Assembly (NCBI GenBank): GCA_020348985.1
Contig: CP070761.1
Span: 630,354 to 663,022 of the forward strand
Direction: 5' to 3'
From: Candidatus Thorarchaeota archaeon
GTDB taxonomy: Archaea; Asgardarchaeota; Thorarchaeia; Thorarchaeales; Thorarchaeaceae
DNA length: 32,669 bases
Made by a program: the position numbers and the translations under genes. Of this stretch, positions 24,038-29,701 are shown one piece after another (positions within the stretch are counted from its first letter, which is position 1; each line of letters opens with the position of its first letter). Under the pieces are notes generated by a model, which was not told where the DNA came from, did not search any database, and saw nothing but the letters and a program-made list of their open reading frames with translations.

Positions 24038-25654
24038 ATGAATATCGAACGCGAAACATACGATCATCCAGAAATGAGCTCTGATTTAGACATGAGCCGG
24101 TTTCGTATGGCGAAGTATCCTCCGAAGCAGTTGCCTTATACTACCAAATCGATTTGCCCCGTTTGTCTACTTGACGAAAGGGAGGTCAATGTCATTGATG
24201 CGACAGTCTTTGAGCGTGACGGCCAAATCATGTTTGAGAAAGAGTGTCCGAATCACGGGGTGTTTGAGGATATCTACTGGTCAGATGCAGCAATGTTCGA
24301 GAGGGTAATGAACTACTGGTATATGTCTCTGGGACTAGACAACCCAAGAACACAGTCAATTCATGGTTGTCCAGAAGACTGTGGACAATGCACCAATCAC
24401 CTTGGACACACTGCATTGGGATTGATTGATGTTACAAGCAGATGCAATCTGTCTTGCTCCATCTGCTTTGCGAACGCTGAGGGATCCGGTCGTACATACG
24501 AACCTGAGCCCGACCAAGTTCTTGAAATGTTGAAGAACCTGAGAAGCAATCTGCCAGCACCATGCCCCGCAGTACAGTTTGCAGGGGGTGAACCAACTCT
24601 TAGCAAGAACCTACCACAGTACATCAAGTGGGCAGACGAGCTAGGTTTCAGACATATCATGGTAGCAACAAACGGAATTCGTATCGCGAAGAATCCCAAG
24701 TACTTGCAGCAGCTTGTTGACGCCGGATTGAAGACGTTGTATCTTCAGTTTGATGGAATCACCGAAAAGCCCTACATCACTGCTAGGAATATTGACCTCC
24801 GCGAAGTCAAGAATCAGGCCCTTGACAGTGCCAGAACTGCGAATTTGGATGGTATCATACTTGTGCCTACAGTTGTCAAGGGTGTTAACGACCAAGAACT
24901 TGGTAGTATAATCCGATATGCACTTGACAATCGAGACATTGTGAGGTGCATCAACTTTCAGCCAGTTTCTATCACAGGAAGAATAGAACACGAAAAGCGA
25001 ATGGCAATGCGGATAACTACTCCTGATGCGATAAAGCTGATAGAAAAGCAGACAAATGGAAGGATAAGGCAGTCTGATTGGTATCCGATTTCCTCGATGA
25101 TGGGCGTTGGACGTGCAATTGGACTCATGAGAGGCGTAAACCTCTTTGAGCTTCATTCTCATTTTGCGTGTGGCATGGCAACGTTCCTTTTCATCGGAGA
25201 AGATAACACCTACTACCCGATAACCGAAGTTGTCGATTTGGAGAAGCTCCTAATCACACTTGAGGAAATCTGTAACCTTTATGCTGATGGAGCAAGATTC
25301 CCAGGACTCCGTTCGAAAGTCAAGCTGATGAAATTCCTGAGACATGTTAGGAAGAAGAGCTTCATGAAGCCGGTGATTTCCTCCTTCCTGAGAAGCGGTT
25401 CATACAGTTCTCTAAAGGTATTCATGAGCAAAGTTATCATGCTGGGTATCATGCACTTCCAGGATCCATGGAACATCGACTTAGAACGTATGAAGCATTG
25501 CACAATCAACTATGCTTCTCCTGATGGACGGATCATTCCCTTCTGCACATACAATAGCATTCACAGGGAGAGAATTGAATCTGTATACGGATTGGATGCC
25601 CAGATGCCATTGGAGAAGAAGATCCGGACCGAAATGGTGACTGAAATGGACTAA
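24038..25654 (+). CDS. tes: Tetraether lipid synthase (Tes / GDGT-MAS, MJ0619 family radical SAM)
   Basis: Rubredoxin-like CPVC...CPNH, auxiliary cluster GCPEDCGQCTNH, SAM motif CNLSCSIC, QFAGGEPT, YLQFDG, NFQPVS, HFACG, MHFQDPWN...HCTINY...IIPFCTYN. Confidence 0.88.
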   Translation: MNIERETYDHPEMSSDLDMSRFRMAKYPPKQLPYTTKSICPVCLLDEREVNVIDATVFERDGQIMFEKECPNHGVFEDIYWSDAAMFERVMNYWYMSLGLDNPRTQSIHGCPEDCGQCTNHLGHTALGLIDVTSRCNLSCSICFANAEGSGRTYEPEPDQVLEMLKNLRSNLPAPCPAVQFAGGEPTLSKNLPQYIKWADELGFRHIMVATNGIRIAKNPKYLQQLVDAGLKTLYLQFDGITEKPYITARNIDLREVKNQALDSARTANLDGIILVPTVVKGVNDQELGSIIRYALDNRDIVRCINFQPVSITGRIEHEKRMAMRITTPDAIKLIEKQTNGRIRQSDWYPISSMMGVGRAIGLMRGVNLFELHSHFACGMATFLFIGEDNTYYPITEVVDLEKLLITLEEICNLYADGARFPGLRSKVKLMKFLRHVRKKSFMKPVISSFLRSGSYSSLKVFMSKVIMLGIMHFQDPWNIDLERMKHCTINYASPDGRIIPFCTYNSIHRERIESVYGLDAQMPLEKKIRTEMVTEMD

Positions 25655-25768
25655 TTCCTTCTCCAGACCAGAATTGCGACTTTGGTATTGCATCCGACTA
25701 GTTTCGACTGCCATTTCAATCAGCAAATATACCATGCCTAGGATCCCAACTCAAACGGAGTTCAAAGT

Positions 25769-26767
25769 ATGAGAAGAATCTGGAAGCCCGAGATGCCTCA
25801 AGTCAAGTTCGGCAAAGCAAACCACTTCGAAGGTTGGTACTTCAAAATGGTTGACTCTTCCGAGAAGAATGCGCTTGCAGTGATCCCAGGAGTGTCATTT
25901 GGTGCCAATAGAGAAGATAGTCATTCTTTCGTCCAAGTCCTAGATGCTCGGAACTATCAATCCCATTACTATAGGTTCTCTGTTGACCAATTCTCGAGCT
26001 CATCTCGGGAATTTGACATCTCAATCGGACGGAACAGGTTTGCAATGGACGGAATAGCTCTCACCCTGGCTGACAGAAGCGGGTCTGTTCATGGAGAACT
26101 CAGTTTCGGAAACGCCATACCTTGGCCAGTAAGACGACTTAGTCCTGGAGCAATGGGGCCATTTCGATTCGTGCCCCGTTTACAGTGTCTTCATGGAATT
26201 CTCAGTTTTGATCACGAAGTCCAGGGCAGCATGACTGTAGATGGAAGAGACATCGACTTCTCCAATGGGCGTGGATACATTGAGAAAGACTGGGGTCGTG
26301 AGTTTCCGAGCGCGTGGATTTGGATGCAGTCAAACCACTTCGAGGAAACAGGAATCTCCTTTACATCCTCCATTGCAAGCATACCGTTCGGCCGTGGAGC
26401 TTTCACAGGACTTCTAGCCGGACTAATGTTCAATGATGAAATCTACCGCTTTACCACCTATACAAGAGCCAAGATTTCCACACCCGAGGTCTCAGATGAC
26501 CGGGTAGCCTTCAAGATTGAGGACAAAAGGTACTTGATAGAAGTCGATGCGGAACGTGCCCATGGCACCTCACTCCGATCTCCAGTTGGAGGGCTAATGA
26601 CTGGAAGGATCCTTGAAAGCCTTGATAGTTCCATTCGCTTGAGGTTCTACAGATTGACGAAGACAACAAAAGAGCTGCTATTCGAAGGAGTAGGGCGGAA
26701 TGCAGGACTCGAAGTTGTGGGAGACCTTGAAGAGATTGGAGCCATCTCTGTTCACTCGCCCGGCTAA
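25769..26767 (+). CDS. Tocopherol cyclase family protein
   Basis: FEGWYFK, QCLHGILS, GYIEKDWGREFPSAWIWMQSNHF, C-terminal AGLEVVG. Confidence 0.88.
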   Translation: MRRIWKPEMPQVKFGKANHFEGWYFKMVDSSEKNALAVIPGVSFGANREDSHSFVQVLDARNYQSHYYRFSVDQFSSSSREFDISIGRNRFAMDGIALTLADRSGSVHGELSFGNAIPWPVRRLSPGAMGPFRFVPRLQCLHGILSFDHEVQGSMTVDGRDIDFSNGRGYIEKDWGREFPSAWIWMQSNHFEETGISFTSSIASIPFGRGAFTGLLAGLMFNDEIYRFTTYTRAKISTPEVSDDRVAFKIEDKRYLIEVDAERAHGTSLRSPVGGLMTGRILESLDSSIRLRFYRLTKTTKELLFEGVGRNAGLEVVGDLEEIGAISVHSPG

Positions 26768-26965
26768 TCTGGAAACTCGTGATTGAAACATCTGCCGTAT
26801 CCTTCTCTCGAAAGTCATGGATTATTGGATTGTACTCCTCCGATGGGCCTGAAAATCATCCTCTACGATTGCTTTGCAGGACAGGAAAAGACCCAATTCG
26901 CTTCACAAAGGTATCTTCGTAAATGGTTATTAAGTCCGGAATCTCTGACGTGCTGTTTTCTCGTG

Positions 26966-29266
26966 CTAACCGACAGAGTCTAGCCTCAGGAGCTCCAAAT
27001 AATACTCCAAATACTCCCTCCCTATAGACCCAATATCCAATCGCTCTCTCGCAAACTGTTTTCCTCTGGAAGCAATCTCATGCAGTGAATCTTTCCTTTC
27101 ATAATGTTGAAGAACTGCTTCGATATCTGTGCGAATTGACTCAGCATCGTCTGTACGAATGAGAAAGCCATTATTCCCATCCTTGATATAATCTGAAACA
27201 CCCCCGCGTCTGGGGGCGAATGTCAGAAATCCTGCAGCCATGCCCTCCAGAATAGAAATACCAAACTCCTCCTTGAAACTACTGCACACATAGAGGTTTG
27301 GCAAGTCATTCTTAATGCTGCTCATGATACTTTGCTCCAATAGACGCACTTTGGGATTTTGAACAGCTGGAATGTGACAGAACTGACCTTTGAGTTCAGG
27401 TCTGCTCTCCATCAATTCCTCAATTCGTTTGATTATTGAAAGCTCTTCCGGAGTTGGGTTATTGAGATTCCCCCCTACTAGCACTAGATTGTAGGACTGA
27501 TTCAGAGAAGACCTAATCCAAGCTTCTACTAGATAGTGTTGCCCCTTCATTGGGTGCAGGCGACCCGCGTTGAGAATGATTGGGCGGCCCAATTGTGATG
27601 GGTTCAATTGATAGTCTCCTTCGTGAGAGATGAGGAGATCTGGGTATATGCTTGCGTCCTCCTCCCGCAGACGGAATTCTGGGCGTACACCCTCAGCCAC
27701 AATTCTGAGGGGCTTGTTCCTTATGGTACTGTCCAACAAAAGCTGAGGGAAATAGGGAAGAACCTGCGAGTTCTTGCGCTCGAATCCTATCAGCAGAAGC
27801 GCATCGACCCCCTCGATAATCTTGTCTGCAATGAAGACCTTGTTCAGATTACGAAGGAGCTGAGATTCACTCATGGGCCTGAAGTCCTTATCATTCTGCA
27901 TGAAGGTCCCATGAGGATCCGGTGTGAGTGTGAAGACTACCTTCTTCCCTAGTCTCTTGGCAAGACTGAGAACGGCCTTGGATGCATTGTCTGTGTACCG
28001 AATATGGAAGATGTCTGGGTCAATGTCGTAGCGTTCGAGTGTTCTCCTTACGGCTCGCATGATTTCATACTCATTTTCAAGGAAGTCGAGTGCTTCATCG
28101 CACAACTCGAATGATACAGGAATGCGAACCAGCTTGTGGTTATCTCTCAATTCCTCCAAGAGTGGTTCTGTCATGGCTCTATCCATGGGGAGAAGATTGA
28201 ATGTATAGACATCCGCGATCTCATCGTTCTCTGTCAAATAGTCTCCCAACTCACGAAGGAATGTGCCCAAGCCCCCTCCACTCAACACCCCTGGACGGGT
28301 CAAGTCGCCATAGAAAGCACATTGCACTAGTGTGATTCCTTCGGACCTTTCGCTCTTTCTCCTCTCCTTGCCACGTTCAAGCTCTATCACGGAAGCACGA
28401 ATGAATTCTGAAAGTGTCAAAGAGTCGCTTGCGTTGAGATTGCCCAGCACCTTCGTGGATGCAGAGTCGCCCAATTGTGCAATAACATCAACTAGCGTGT
28501 AGAGTATTGATGGTTCCAGTGATGGCTGGCGGAGTAGTCGATTGAGAGAAGGAGTCAGGGAGGTCTTACCTTTATCACCGACATATCGAAGCAATGCACA
28601 GAGAGCCGGTGCCTCCAATCTATCACTCTCAAGACATTCTCTCAGACTTGCTTCTGTCAATCCATCTAGTCCGTGTTCAGCTGATAGATCTAGGAAGAAT
28701 CTCATTTGACGCTCATCGACAGTTGCAACATCTAGAATGCCACTTGGGATATCTATCAGGTCTTGAGGATCACCAGACTCCCCAGCGGTACGAAAGAGAT
28801 CAGCAACCAGCGCGTCGATATAGGGCGAGCTACCAACAAAATCGAGGAGACGCGCATGATTGTCTTGTGGTTGGACTTCAAAAAGTGAAATGAGGGCGAG
28901 ATAAAGGTCGATTGTTGTCCGAGTTTCTTCGAAGAGTGTCGTCACACTTTCTTCTCCGCGTAGCAGCAAGATGTTTCGAGCCAATACTCGACTGGCCTCA
29001 CCCATATCGCGAATAGATTCTAGTCTAGGACTGTCGAATACTATTGGCACTTTGAGTCTACTTAGAAGAAACAGACAGTACCGGAAGAGTGAGTAGGTGT
29101 CGGTTGCACAAATGATAACTCTGGGTAGGGAATCGTACAGATACTCGACTACATTGTCATAGGTGTGCTTCTTCGGGTCCCGCTCAATCTCATCTAATAT
29201 CTCCTCTATTTCCGATTCATTGAACGATTCGAGAACAGTGCGGTAGTCGGACGTGTGCAGAACCAT
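26966..29266 (-). CDS. GT-B (GT4, sucrose-phosphate-synthase-like) glycosyltransferase with N-terminal helical/HEAT-like region
   Basis: GGLGTFL acceptor loop, GRLHPMKG, EEFGISILEGMAAG (E-x7-E), DGNNGFL. The ~300-aa Leu-rich helical N-terminus includes a HEAT-like VIAQLGDSASTKVL. Confidence 0.87.
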   Translation of the reverse strand: MVLHTSDYRTVLESFNESEIEEILDEIERDPKKHTYDNVVEYLYDSLPRVIICATDTYSLFRYCLFLLSRLKVPIVFDSPRLESIRDMGEASRVLARNILLLRGEESVTTLFEETRTTIDLYLALISLFEVQPQDNHARLLDFVGSSPYIDALVADLFRTAGESGDPQDLIDIPSGILDVATVDERQMRFFLDLSAEHGLDGLTEASLRECLESDRLEAPALCALLRYVGDKGKTSLTPSLNRLLRQPSLEPSILYTLVDVIAQLGDSASTKVLGNLNASDSLTLSEFIRASVIELERGKERRKSERSEGITLVQCAFYGDLTRPGVLSGGGLGTFLRELGDYLTENDEIADVYTFNLLPMDRAMTEPLLEELRDNHKLVRIPVSFELCDEALDFLENEYEIMRAVRRTLERYDIDPDIFHIRYTDNASKAVLSLAKRLGKKVVFTLTPDPHGTFMQNDKDFRPMSESQLLRNLNKVFIADKIIEGVDALLLIGFERKNSQVLPYFPQLLLDSTIRNKPLRIVAEGVRPEFRLREEDASIYPDLLISHEGDYQLNPSQLGRPIILNAGRLHPMKGQHYLVEAWIRSSLNQSYNLVLVGGNLNNPTPEELSIIKRIEELMESRPELKGQFCHIPAVQNPKVRLLEQSIMSSIKNDLPNLYVCSSFKEEFGISILEGMAAGFLTFAPRRGGVSDYIKDGNNGFLIRTDDAESIRTDIEAVLQHYERKDSLHEIASRGKQFARERLDIGSIGREYLEYYLELLRLDSVG

Positions 29267-29275
29267 CCTTATTGA

Positions 29276-29701
29276 CTAGCCCAGCCAGTCAGGCACTTCA
29301 TGATCCAGCCAAACGGGATCTGGCGTGACCTCGTCTTCTGTGTCCTTGCCGCGATTATCGTGGATTATTTCATTGAACTCCTCCGATGGGCACACTTGCA
29401 TGTCATTTTCAACAATCACTTGACAAGACAGGTGCACCTGAGGAGCGTCGAACTGGGGCTGACCAGTTCTCACAAACCTTTCAAAGAGGTCCTTCTGTGC
29501 CTGAGTCACTTTGCTAGGTGTGCCCTTGTCAATAGTACATCTGCAGGTAGTGCATTTTGCCCATCCTCCACAAGTGTGGACCAAATCGATTTCATGTTCT
29601 ATGAGGGCCTTGAGCAGTTTCGTCCCACTCTCCACCTCAAACTCCTTCACTACTTCTCTCATTGGATCTACTACTGTAACCTTTGGCATGGCTAAGGCCA
29701 T
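29276..29701 (-). CDS. [2Fe-2S] ferredoxin (adrenodoxin-type)
   Basis: HTCGGWAKCTTC...LSCQ; ends 9 bp upstream of the glycosyltransferase start. Confidence 0.9.
   Translation of the reverse strand: MALAMPKVTVVDPMREVVKEFEVESGTKLLKALIEHEIDLVHTCGGWAKCTTCRCTIDKGTPSKVTQAQKDLFERFVRTGQPQFDAPQVHLSCQVIVENDMQVCPSEEFNEIIHDNRGKDTEDEVTPDPVWLDHEVPDWLG

What the first reader, a model, noticed from the sequence alone, without database searches (positions are those of the whole stretch)
24038..26767. Tetraether synthase directly followed by a tocopherol-cyclase-family gene: candidate new archaeal lipid-tailoring step
Seen: a full-motif Tes/GDGT-MAS gene and, 114 bp downstream on the same strand, a tocopherol cyclase family gene. 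No other tocopherol-pathway gene (HPPD, homogentisate prenyltransferase, methyltransferase) is in the window. Known: Tes couples phytanyl chain termini to form GDGTs and macrocyclic archaeol. Tocopherol cyclase protonates an isoprenoid C=C and adds an oxygen nucleophile, and belongs to the same broad fold group as CrtC-type hydratases. Archaea are not known to make tocopherol. Inference: the enzyme may hydrate, cyclise or bind isoprenoid ether lipids or their geranylgeranyl precursors, giving for example hydroxylated or ringed lipids by a route other than GrsA/B. It might instead act on a prenylquinone.
Basis: partly seen in the sequence, partly recalled or inferred. Interest (0 to 1): 0.75.

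Follow-up and report, generated by a model that had tools for sequence, protein, structure and literature searches.

The report
Second tetraether synthase with barrel enzyme
An Asgard (Thorarchaeota-like) archaeon carries an extra copy of the enzyme that makes membrane-spanning lipids next to a barrel-shaped enzyme of the kind that adds water to or closes rings on isoprenoid double bonds; the two genes are inherited and lost together across their family, so they probably form an uncharacterised lipid- or pigment-tailoring step.

Summary
ORF 24038-25654 scores above NCBIfam's Tes cut-off. ORF 25769-26767, 114 nt downstream on the same strand, is a PF14249 (tocopherol-cyclase family) protein.

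- **The tes is a paralogue.** It is not the housekeeping copy. It belongs to a faster-evolving clade ("Tes-B") found in 16 of 86 genomes of this family.
- **Co-occurrence.** The PF14249 gene occurs in 14 of those 86 genomes, all of which have Tes-B. The two gene trees have the same shape.
- **Carotenoid link.** Both gene sets sit almost entirely inside the 21 genomes that carry a bacterioruberin-type carotenoid cluster. In three relatives Tes-B directly follows that cluster.
- **Adjacency.** It is recent and narrow (about 80 % identical relatives only). The cyclase-like gene keeps its own conserved promoter-like block.
- **Fold.** The model is a double barrel of the AttH/CrtC/kievitone-hydratase type (Z 17-23).
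- **No tocopherol pathway.** No HPPD or homogentisate prenyltransferase was found in the closed genome.
- **Precedent.** A 2025 preprint shows that an AttH-like hydratase (Hgs) works with the radical SAM enzyme Ted to make hydroxy-GDGTs.

Best reading: an accessory isoprenoid-tailoring pair. Whether the substrate is an ether lipid or a carotenoid is open. The scan has noted this protein family in other archaeal genomes. I rate it a new variant of a known kind, interest about 0.6.

The parts
24038..25654 (+). tes-B: second, specialised paralogue of tetraether synthase (radical SAM, 538 aa)
   Evidence: NF045702 588 bits (cut-off 450), PF23545 and PF04055. It is 57 % identical to the other Tes of the genome at C1:2543026-2544540. 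It falls in a separately supported clade (SH-aLRT 99), sister to the housekeeping clade.
25655..25768 (+). 114-nt spacer between tes-B and the cyclase-like gene; no run of T after tes-B
   Evidence: Read directly. The spacer is 77-135 nt long in relatives.
25706..25733 (+). Promoter-like block that is almost invariant among relatives. It contains the TATA-like AAATATA at 25725-25731, about 41 nt before the ATG. A conserved GGAG lies at 25757-25760.
   Evidence: Nearly invariant in six spacers that are otherwise divergent, with exact matches in L056, L059 and L060. It is also kept upstream of the orthologue in G194, where the upstream gene is an aldo/keto reductase rather than tes-B. Promoter function is inferred.
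25769..26767 (+). PF14249 (tocopherol-cyclase family) protein, 332 aa, soluble double beta-barrel of the AttH/CrtC superfamily; candidate isoprenoid C=C hydratase or cyclase
   Evidence: PF14249 72.6 bits. AlphaFold model pLDDT 93.7. Z 17-23 over residues 3-319 to CghA/Fsa2/Phm7, AttH 2ich, kievitone hydratase 7a0q and 25-phosphosteroid lyase, then a drop to Z 7. The family is highly conserved, with 44 invariant columns in 42 sequences.

Best explanation
The pair belongs to a patchily inherited accessory set of isoprenoid-tailoring genes in one Thorarchaeota-like family.

Tes-B is a duplicated tetraether synthase that keeps every conserved cysteine, so it should still join isoprenoid chain ends by radical chemistry. 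It evolves about twice as fast as the housekeeping copy and is dispensable in most relatives.

The downstream protein is not a tocopherol cyclase in function. It belongs to the barrel superfamily whose characterised members (tocopherol cyclase, CrtC, kievitone hydratase and, per the 2025 preprint, Hgs) add a proton and then water or a hydroxyl oxygen to a trisubstituted isoprenoid C=C. Other members, the decalin-forming cycloaddition enzymes, fold a polyene instead.

Most likely mechanism: it acts on a membrane isoprenoid that only Tes-B-bearing cells contain. That would be an unsaturated or otherwise special tail-linked ether lipid made by Tes-B, which it converts to a hydroxylated or ring-bearing chain. 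This is the logic of the Ted-Hgs pair, but with a different radical SAM enzyme and a different branch of the barrel superfamily.

Shown: gene identities, paralogy, fold, absence of the tocopherol pathway, strict co-occurrence and matching trees within the family, and the narrow and recent adjacency.

Inferred: that the coupling is functional, the chemistry, the substrate, and the order of steps.
For: 1. In 86 genomes of the family the PF14249 gene is found in 14 and Tes-B in those 14 plus 2 more. Seventy genomes lack both.
2. Presence and absence change together inside three genera: g1 (1 of 3 genomes), g3 (2 of 3) and g12 (3 of 17). In most genomes the two genes lie on different contigs, so physical linkage does not explain this.
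3. The Tes-B tree and the PF14249 tree share the same branching order of genera.
4. Tes-B moved into the cyclase locus. L056 and L127 are syntenic, but only L056 has tes-B in front of the gene. The pair then appears as a unit in a different context in the window.
5. The fold matches enzymes that hydrate or cyclise isoprenoid and polyene chains.
6. A radical SAM lipid enzyme with an overlapping AttH-like hydratase has been shown to make OH-GDGT (bioRxiv 10.1101/2025.10.20.683597, section 10).
7. A second Tes copy of unclear role has a precedent: MA_1114 gave only trace macrocyclic archaeol (PMC8941075).
Against: - The adjacency is limited to relatives about 80 % identical. Even G194, which is 81 % identical for both genes, has them apart.
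- The cyclase-like gene has its own conserved promoter-like block, so an operon is not indicated.
- Outside this family the PF14249 gene occurs without Tes-B or without any Tes: f5 8 of 13 genomes with no Tes, f22 3 of 7 with no Tes, f12 G096 intact with only the ordinary Tes, plus Methanosarcina mazei and Methanobacterium lacus.
- Three genomes have Tes-B without the gene (G160, G170, G028).
- Genomes of one family are not independent, so the Fisher value overstates the case.
- The same genomes also carry a carotenoid cluster, which offers another substrate.
Confidence: 0.45

Rival explanations
1. Carotenoid tailoring. The PF14249 protein acts on the C40/C50 carotenoid made by the co-varying bacterioruberin-type cluster (CruF, UbiA-type elongase, CrtID, CrtB, CrtI). 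It would work as a CrtC-like hydratase or an ether- or ring-forming cyclase. Tes-B travels with it because it belongs to the same accessory isoprenoid region, or itself works on a non-GDGT isoprenoid.
For: - In G155, G160 and G194, tes-B directly follows the crtB-crtI genes on the same strand, with gaps of 0-47 nt.
- The window's genome has the cluster at C1:595061-600475, 54 kb from tes-B.
- 13 of 14 genomes with the PF14249 gene carry crt genes, against 8 of 72 without it. The sets are nearly nested: crt 21, Tes-B 16, PF14249 14.
- In family f9 the single genome with the PF14249 gene (G135) is also the single one with a phytoene/squalene synthase.
- CrtC is a relative by fold (for the fold; the paper cited above for the family).
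- PF14249 genes recur near rhodopsin genes in other prokaryotes (bioRxiv 10.1101/2021.02.16.431466).
- Haloarchaea that make no GDGT have Tes homologues of unknown role (PMC8941075).
Against: - The PF14249 gene is never adjacent to crt genes in any locus examined.
- f5 (8 genomes with the gene), the Freyarchaeal genome G038 and G136 have it without a phytoene/squalene synthase.
- The bacterioruberin pathway as known needs no further hydratase (own knowledge).
- Eight crt-bearing genomes lack the gene.
Confidence: 0.27
2. No functional link. The adjacency is a recent rearrangement in a variable region. The co-occurrence reflects shared descent and loss of an ancestral accessory region. The PF14249 protein does in Thorarchaeota whatever it does in Tes-less Heimdall-like archaea and in methanogens.
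For: - The family is broad and about 45 % identical across Asgard archaea and methanogens irrespective of Tes.
- The gene has its own promoter-like block.
- The window's flanking genes (GT4 glycosyltransferase, Mo-oxidoreductase) are not found in the two congeners, and one crtI gene of the genome is truncated, which points to a rearranged region.
- The adjacency is absent in G194.
Against: - In the clade g3/g10/g11/g13 the three gene sets lie on different contigs, yet G027 (98 % complete) lacks all of them. One deletion does not explain that.
- No genome of the family keeps the PF14249 gene without Tes-B.
- The pair moved together into a new context.
Confidence: 0.23
3. True chromanol-forming cyclase acting on a prenylated quinol (tocopherol- or plastochromanol-like chemistry).
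For: Membership in PF14249 above the gathering score. A UbiE/COQ5-like methyltransferase lies two to four genes from the orthologue in several relatives.
Against: - No HPPD or homogentisate prenyltransferase is above cut-off in the closed genome.
- The methyltransferase and SDR neighbours are kept in the window's genome at about C1:1156-1158 kb without the PF14249 gene, so they are plain synteny.
- Only the C-terminal half of the Pfam profile is matched.
Confidence: 0.05

Closest known systems
Ted-Hgs pair (B12-radical SAM tetraether desaturase plus AttH-like hydroxy-GDGT synthase; Ca. Bathyarchaeota B1_G15 and a Guaymas Basin scaffold; bioRxiv 10.1101/2025.10.20.683597)
   Same: A radical SAM enzyme of archaeal tetraether metabolism is genomically tied to a non-radical barrel enzyme of the AttH/CrtC fold group that adds water to an isoprenoid C=C.
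   Different: - The radical SAM partner here is a Tes paralogue, not a B12-binding Ted.
- The barrel protein is of the PF14249 branch. PF07143 (CrtC) is not detected in it or anywhere in the genome.
- The genes do not overlap and probably have separate promoters.
- The authors report no Hgs homologues in Asgard archaea.
- No activity is known for the proteins here.
Tes / GDGT-MAS (MA_1486, Maeo_0574, MJ0619) and the second copy MA_1114 (PMC8941075)
   Same: Score above the equivalog cut-off, the same domains and conserved cysteines. As with MA_1114, it is a second copy beside a housekeeping one.
   Different: It belongs to a distinct clade restricted to 16 of 86 genomes of its family plus two Freyarchaeal genomes. 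It evolves faster (64-81 % identity against 77-85 % for the housekeeping copy). In three relatives it is appended to a carotenoid cluster.
Tocopherol cyclase VTE1 / slr1737 (PF14249)
   Same: Same Pfam family by score. The proposed chemistry is the same: protonation of a C=C followed by attack of an oxygen nucleophile.
   Different: No homogentisate or prenylquinol pathway in the genome. The host is an uncultured sediment archaeon. The protein is shorter (332 aa) and only the C-terminal half of the profile aligns.
Kievitone hydratase (PDB 7a0q), AttH (2ich), CrtC, and the decalin-forming cycloaddition enzymes CghA/Fsa2/Phm7
   Same: Full-length double-barrel fold, Z 19-23, rmsd 3.2-4.0 A over 258-286 residues.
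   Different: Sequence identity is only 9-14 %. Catalytic residues were not compared. These enzymes act on flavonoid prenyl groups, carotenoids or polyketides.

Membership tests
Tetraether synthase Tes (NF045702) | Score above the curated equivalog cut-off | tested here: met
   588.4 bits against a cut-off of 450.
Tetraether synthase Tes (NF045702) | Radical SAM CX3CX2C motif, N-terminal zinc ribbon and further conserved cysteines | tested here: met
   CNLSCSIC at residues 136-143. PF23545 matches residues 34-82. C40, C70, H73, C111, C115, C118, C378, C488 and C503 are invariant in 37 sequences.
Tetraether synthase Tes (NF045702) | Being the lineage's vertically inherited (housekeeping) copy | tested here: not met
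   It falls in the separate Tes-B clade. The genome's other copy sits in the clade shared by nearly all family members.
Tetraether synthase Tes (NF045702) | Forms GDGT or macrocyclic archaeol from archaeol-type lipids | not testable with these tools
   Needs heterologous expression and LC-MS.
Tocopherol cyclase (PF14249, VTE1-type function) | Pfam gathering score | tested here: met
   72.6 bits against a cut-off of 26.6, but only profile positions 166-335 are matched.
Tocopherol cyclase (PF14249, VTE1-type function) | Substrate pathway present (HPPD, homogentisate prenyltransferase) | tested here: not met
   TIGR01263 best hit 28.9 bits (cut-off 277). NF009525 best hit 45 bits (cut-off 226). 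Both in a single-contig genome.
Tocopherol cyclase (PF14249, VTE1-type function) | Chromanol ring formation | not testable with these tools
   Enzyme assay needed.
AttH/CrtC-like hydratase superfamily (includes Hgs and kievitone hydratase) | Double beta-barrel fold over the full length | tested here: met
   Z 17-23 with 258-286 aligned residues; the next unrelated folds score Z 7.
AttH/CrtC-like hydratase superfamily (includes Hgs and kievitone hydratase) | Sequence membership in the CrtC/AttH Pfam family (PF07143) | tested here: not met
   Only PF14249 is reported for the protein. PF07143 finds nothing in the genome, while two control genomes give hits.
AttH/CrtC-like hydratase superfamily (includes Hgs and kievitone hydratase) | Catalytic acid/base residues as in CrtC or kievitone hydratase | not tested
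   No residue-level structural alignment was available. The invariant polar residues of the family are listed.
Ted-Hgs type two-gene module | Overlapping or operonic radical SAM and hydratase genes | tested here: not met
   114-nt spacer with a conserved promoter-like block of its own. The adjacency is present only in close relatives.
Ted-Hgs type two-gene module | Co-occurrence of the two genes across genomes | tested here: met
   Within the family, 14 of 14 genomes with the PF14249 gene have Tes-B and 0 of 70 without Tes-B have it. This does not hold outside the family.

The most novel reading that the evidence does not exclude
Tes-B is not a plain GDGT synthase. It is a radical C-C coupling enzyme recruited to a different isoprenoid, either a special unsaturated or hydroxylated ether lipid or a carotenoid-derived chain made by the adjacent bacterioruberin-type cluster. 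The PF14249 barrel enzyme then closes a ring or adds a hydroxyl on its product. Together they would give a so far orphan sedimentary lipid made by Asgard archaea. This would also explain why GDGT-free haloarchaea keep Tes homologues.
Probability: 0.15. Interest if true: 0.85.

Novelty: new variant of a known kind. Interest (0 to 1): 0.6.

Why it matters
Asgard archaea are the closest known relatives of eukaryotes. Apart from a few cultured strains their membrane lipids are unknown, and this Thorarchaeota-like lineage has no culture. Many sedimentary tetraethers (hydroxylated, unsaturated, oddly ringed) have no known producer or gene.

A second tetraether synthase that is gained and lost together with a hydratase/cyclase-type barrel enzyme, and with a C50-carotenoid cluster, gives three concrete genes to express in existing archaeal hosts. 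It would extend the newly shown radical-SAM-plus-AttH-hydratase logic to a new enzyme pair. It would give the first function for the widespread archaeal branch of the tocopherol-cyclase family. It may also explain Tes paralogues that make no GDGT.

Tried and rejected
- **Complex prediction** of Tes-B with the PF14249 protein: no verdict (score 0.00, controls not run).
- **RNA evidence:** no RNA holder is listed among public runs, so co-transcription could not be examined.
- **Sequence search of solved structures** with the family profile: no hit.
- **SDR, methyltransferase, PadR and CopD-like genes beside the orthologue** in nine relatives. I rejected these as partners because the window's genome keeps the SDR and methyltransferase (and the downstream LRR gene) at about C1:1154-1158 kb without the PF14249 gene; PadR gave no hit and CopD only a weak hit elsewhere. 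The SDR cluster also mixes paralogues.
- **Remnant of the truncated crtI gene** upstream of the window's tes-B: none found.
- **B12-radical SAM candidate for a Ted-like partner** (C1:227911-229566): present in 35 of 86 genomes and missing from all g3/g10/g11/g13 genomes that have the PF14249 gene, so it does not co-vary. Ted itself could not be searched because no sequence or model was at hand.
- **Rhodopsin families** PF18761 and PF01036: nothing was found in the genome or in any control genome, so this is uninformative.
- **DNA-level comparison with congeners:** only tes matched, which is too divergent to define an island.
- **Stops reported inside matches.** Those in G096 and G160 lie outside the coding regions. 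G067 has a real frameshift.
Full report
**What is there.** The window holds two co-oriented ORFs exactly as described: 24038-25654 (538 aa) and 25769-26767 (332 aa), 114 nt apart. The first scores 588 bits on NCBIfam NF045702 (tetraether lipid synthase Tes, cut-off 450). It carries the HMPTM-type zinc ribbon, the radical SAM domain and the CNLSCSIC motif. The second matches PF14249 (tocopherol cyclase) at 72.6 bits, on the C-terminal half of the profile only, and no NCBIfam model. The window lies in a single-contig 3.16-Mb genome. Its nearest database proteins are labelled Thorarchaeota or Promethearchaeota. A short-read contig from a public sediment metagenome bridges 25256-26861 without a difference.

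**The tes is a paralogue.** The genome has a second Tes at C1:2543026-2544540 (620 bits), 57 % identical to the window copy.
- In a tree of 56 Tes sequences the window copy falls in a clade of 16 sequences (SH-aLRT 99), which I call Tes-B. This clade is sister to the clade holding the single Tes of nearly all family members, including the genome's other copy.
- Tes-B is found in 16 of 86 genomes of the family and in two Freyarchaeal genomes, whose own Tes branches elsewhere.
- Tes-B diverges faster than the housekeeping copy: 64-81 % identity against 77-85 % over the same genomes.
- It keeps all cysteines that are invariant across both clades.

**The downstream protein.**
- Its homologues number in the thousands and are well conserved. 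About 45 % identity links Asgard lineages, Methanosarcina mazei and Methanobacterium lacus, and 42 sequences share 44 invariant columns.
- The AlphaFold model is confident (pLDDT 93.7).
- It is a full-length double beta-barrel. It matches the decalin-forming cycloaddition enzymes CghA/Fsa2/Phm7, AttH (2ich), kievitone hydratase (7a0q) and 25-phosphosteroid lyase at Z 17-23, with the next folds at Z 7.
- The closed genome has no HPPD or homogentisate prenyltransferase above cut-off, and no PF07143 (CrtC) protein.
- So the protein is a member of PF14249 by score, but tocopherol synthesis is not its role here.

**How far the adjacency goes.**
- Twenty other Asgard genomes with a homologue have no Tes within 8 kb of it.
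- Methanosarcina mazei, Methanobacterium lacus and a 66 % identical metagenomic relative also lack the adjacency.
- The order tes-B then PF14249 gene is found only among relatives about 80 % identical: L056, L057 (=G199), L059 and G200.
- In G194, which is 81 % identical for both genes, they lie on different contigs with other neighbours.
- L127, a 70 % identical orthologue, is syntenic with L056 on both sides but has no tes-B. So tes-B moved into the cyclase locus, and the pair sits in yet another context in the window.
- The window's flanking genes (Mo-oxidoreductase, GT4 glycosyltransferase) are not found in the two congeners.

**Transcription.** No run of T follows tes-B. A 28-nt block at 25706-25733, which contains AAATATA about 41 nt before the ATG, is almost invariant in six spacers that are otherwise divergent. 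A GGAG lies at 25757-25760. The same block precedes the orthologue in G194, where the upstream gene is an aldo/keto reductase. I infer that the gene has its own promoter. Read-through from tes-B cannot be excluded, and no RNA data exist.

**Phyletic coupling.**
- In the 86 genomes of the family, the PF14249 gene is present in 14 and Tes-B in those 14 plus G160 and G170. Seventy genomes lack both. Fisher's test gives 2.6e-14, which overstates the case because kin are not independent.
- Presence and absence change together inside three genera: g1 (the window's genome against two congeners), g3 (G037 and G098 against G027) and g12 (3 of 17).
- In most genomes the two genes are on different contigs. 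In the complete Freyarchaeal genome they are 1.2 Mb apart.
- The PF14249 sequences of the family form one clade whose branching order mirrors the Tes-B tree.
- Outside the family the rule fails. Family f5 has the gene in 8 of 13 genomes and no Tes. Family f22 has it in 3 of 7 and no Tes. G096 of f12 has an intact copy, nested in the Thorarchaeal clade, with only its ordinary Tes.

**An unexpected third partner.**
- In G155, G160 and G194, tes-B directly follows the crtB and crtI-family genes, which sit back-to-back with a divergently oriented CrtID gene and a UbiA-type prenyltransferase, with a Caroten_synth (CruF-type) gene further on in G155. The gaps between crtI and tes-B are 0-47 nt. This is the gene content of a bacterioruberin-type C50 carotenoid cluster.
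- The window's genome has the cluster at C1:595061-600475, 30 kb upstream of the window. Its crtI-family gene is cut after about 310 residues by a 1274-aa ORF on the other strand.
- Crt genes occur in 21 of 86 genomes. These include 13 of the 14 genomes with the PF14249 gene (the exception is only 62 % complete) and 14 of the 16 with Tes-B. The sets are thus nearly nested: crt, then Tes-B, then PF14249.
- Across the phylum the link is partial. In f9 the one genome with the PF14249 gene is the one with a phytoene/squalene synthase, but f5 has the gene without such a synthase.

**Literature.**
- Zeng et al. (PMC8941075) found two Tes copies in 22 of 322 methanogens. The second copy of M. acetivorans gave only trace macrocyclic archaeol. 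Tes homologues also occur in haloarchaea that make no GDGT.
- Garcia et al. (bioRxiv 10.1101/2025.10.20.683597) showed that an AttH-like hydratase, Hgs, whose gene overlaps that of the B12-radical SAM desaturase Ted, makes OH-GDGTs. They report Ted but no Hgs in Asgard archaea.
- Chazan et al. (bioRxiv 10.1101/2021.02.16.431466) list tocopherol cyclase among families that recur near rhodopsin genes.
- No paper in the library links PF14249 with archaeal lipids.

**Reading.** The strict dependence of the PF14249 gene on Tes-B within the family, the matching trees, and the move of tes-B into the cyclase locus followed by joint relocation argue for a functional tie. The fold and the Hgs precedent argue for proton-initiated hydration or ring closure at an isoprenoid double bond.

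I put 0.45 on an ether-lipid tailoring step downstream of Tes-B, 0.27 on carotenoid tailoring, 0.23 on no functional link, and 0.05 on chromanol chemistry. Compared with that reading, the adjacency is weaker evidence, the phyletic pattern is stronger evidence, and the carotenoid connection is new.

Noticed in passing
outside the window: G000:C1:595061-600475 (locus L121:3062-8476): Bacterioruberin-type carotenoid cluster (Caroten_synth/CruF, UbiA prenyltransferase, CrtID, CrtB, CrtI-family) in an Asgard archaeon. The last gene is truncated after about 310 residues, where a 1274-aa ORF with no Pfam match runs in on the other strand. In relatives G155, G160 and G194, tes-B sits at exactly that end of the cluster.
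   Followed up: partly
window 26966-29701 (- strand): A 766-aa protein (N-terminal part without a Pfam match, fused to a GT4 glycosyltransferase domain) follows a 2Fe-2S ferredoxin gene 9 nt upstream. Both converge on the pair. The glycosyltransferase is not found in the two congeners and is not next to the pair in L056, so no conserved link with the pair was seen.
   Followed up: partly
L001:4068-6008 (Methanosarcina mazei, GCA_019669945.1): The PF14249 gene of M. mazei overlaps by 8 nt the end of a 646-aa gene with no Pfam or NCBIfam match. This may be a partner in methanogens.
   Followed up: no
L041-L054 (family f5 genomes, no Tes): In Heimdall-like genomes the PF14249 gene sits in a conserved block with hydantoinase/oxoprolinase, an aldo/keto reductase and an aspartate-dehydrogenase-like gene. 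An aldo/keto reductase also precedes the gene in G194.
   Followed up: partly
L053:8083-9071 (G067): The PF14249 gene of this f12 genome, which has no Tes-B, is frameshifted after about residue 154. This is either a pseudogene or an assembly error.
   Followed up: partly
window 25705-25735, run X1: One contig of the best DNA holder matches only the conserved spacer block. Its flanks are those of the L057/L059-type relative, so a second strain carrying the same gene pair lives in the same sediment sample.
   Followed up: partly
L074, L043 (G038, complete Freyarchaeal genome): This genome holds a Tes-B that branches with the Thorarchaeal clade, next to its own Tes, which suggests transfer. It also holds a PF14249 gene of a different clade, 1.2 Mb away.
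   Followed up: partly
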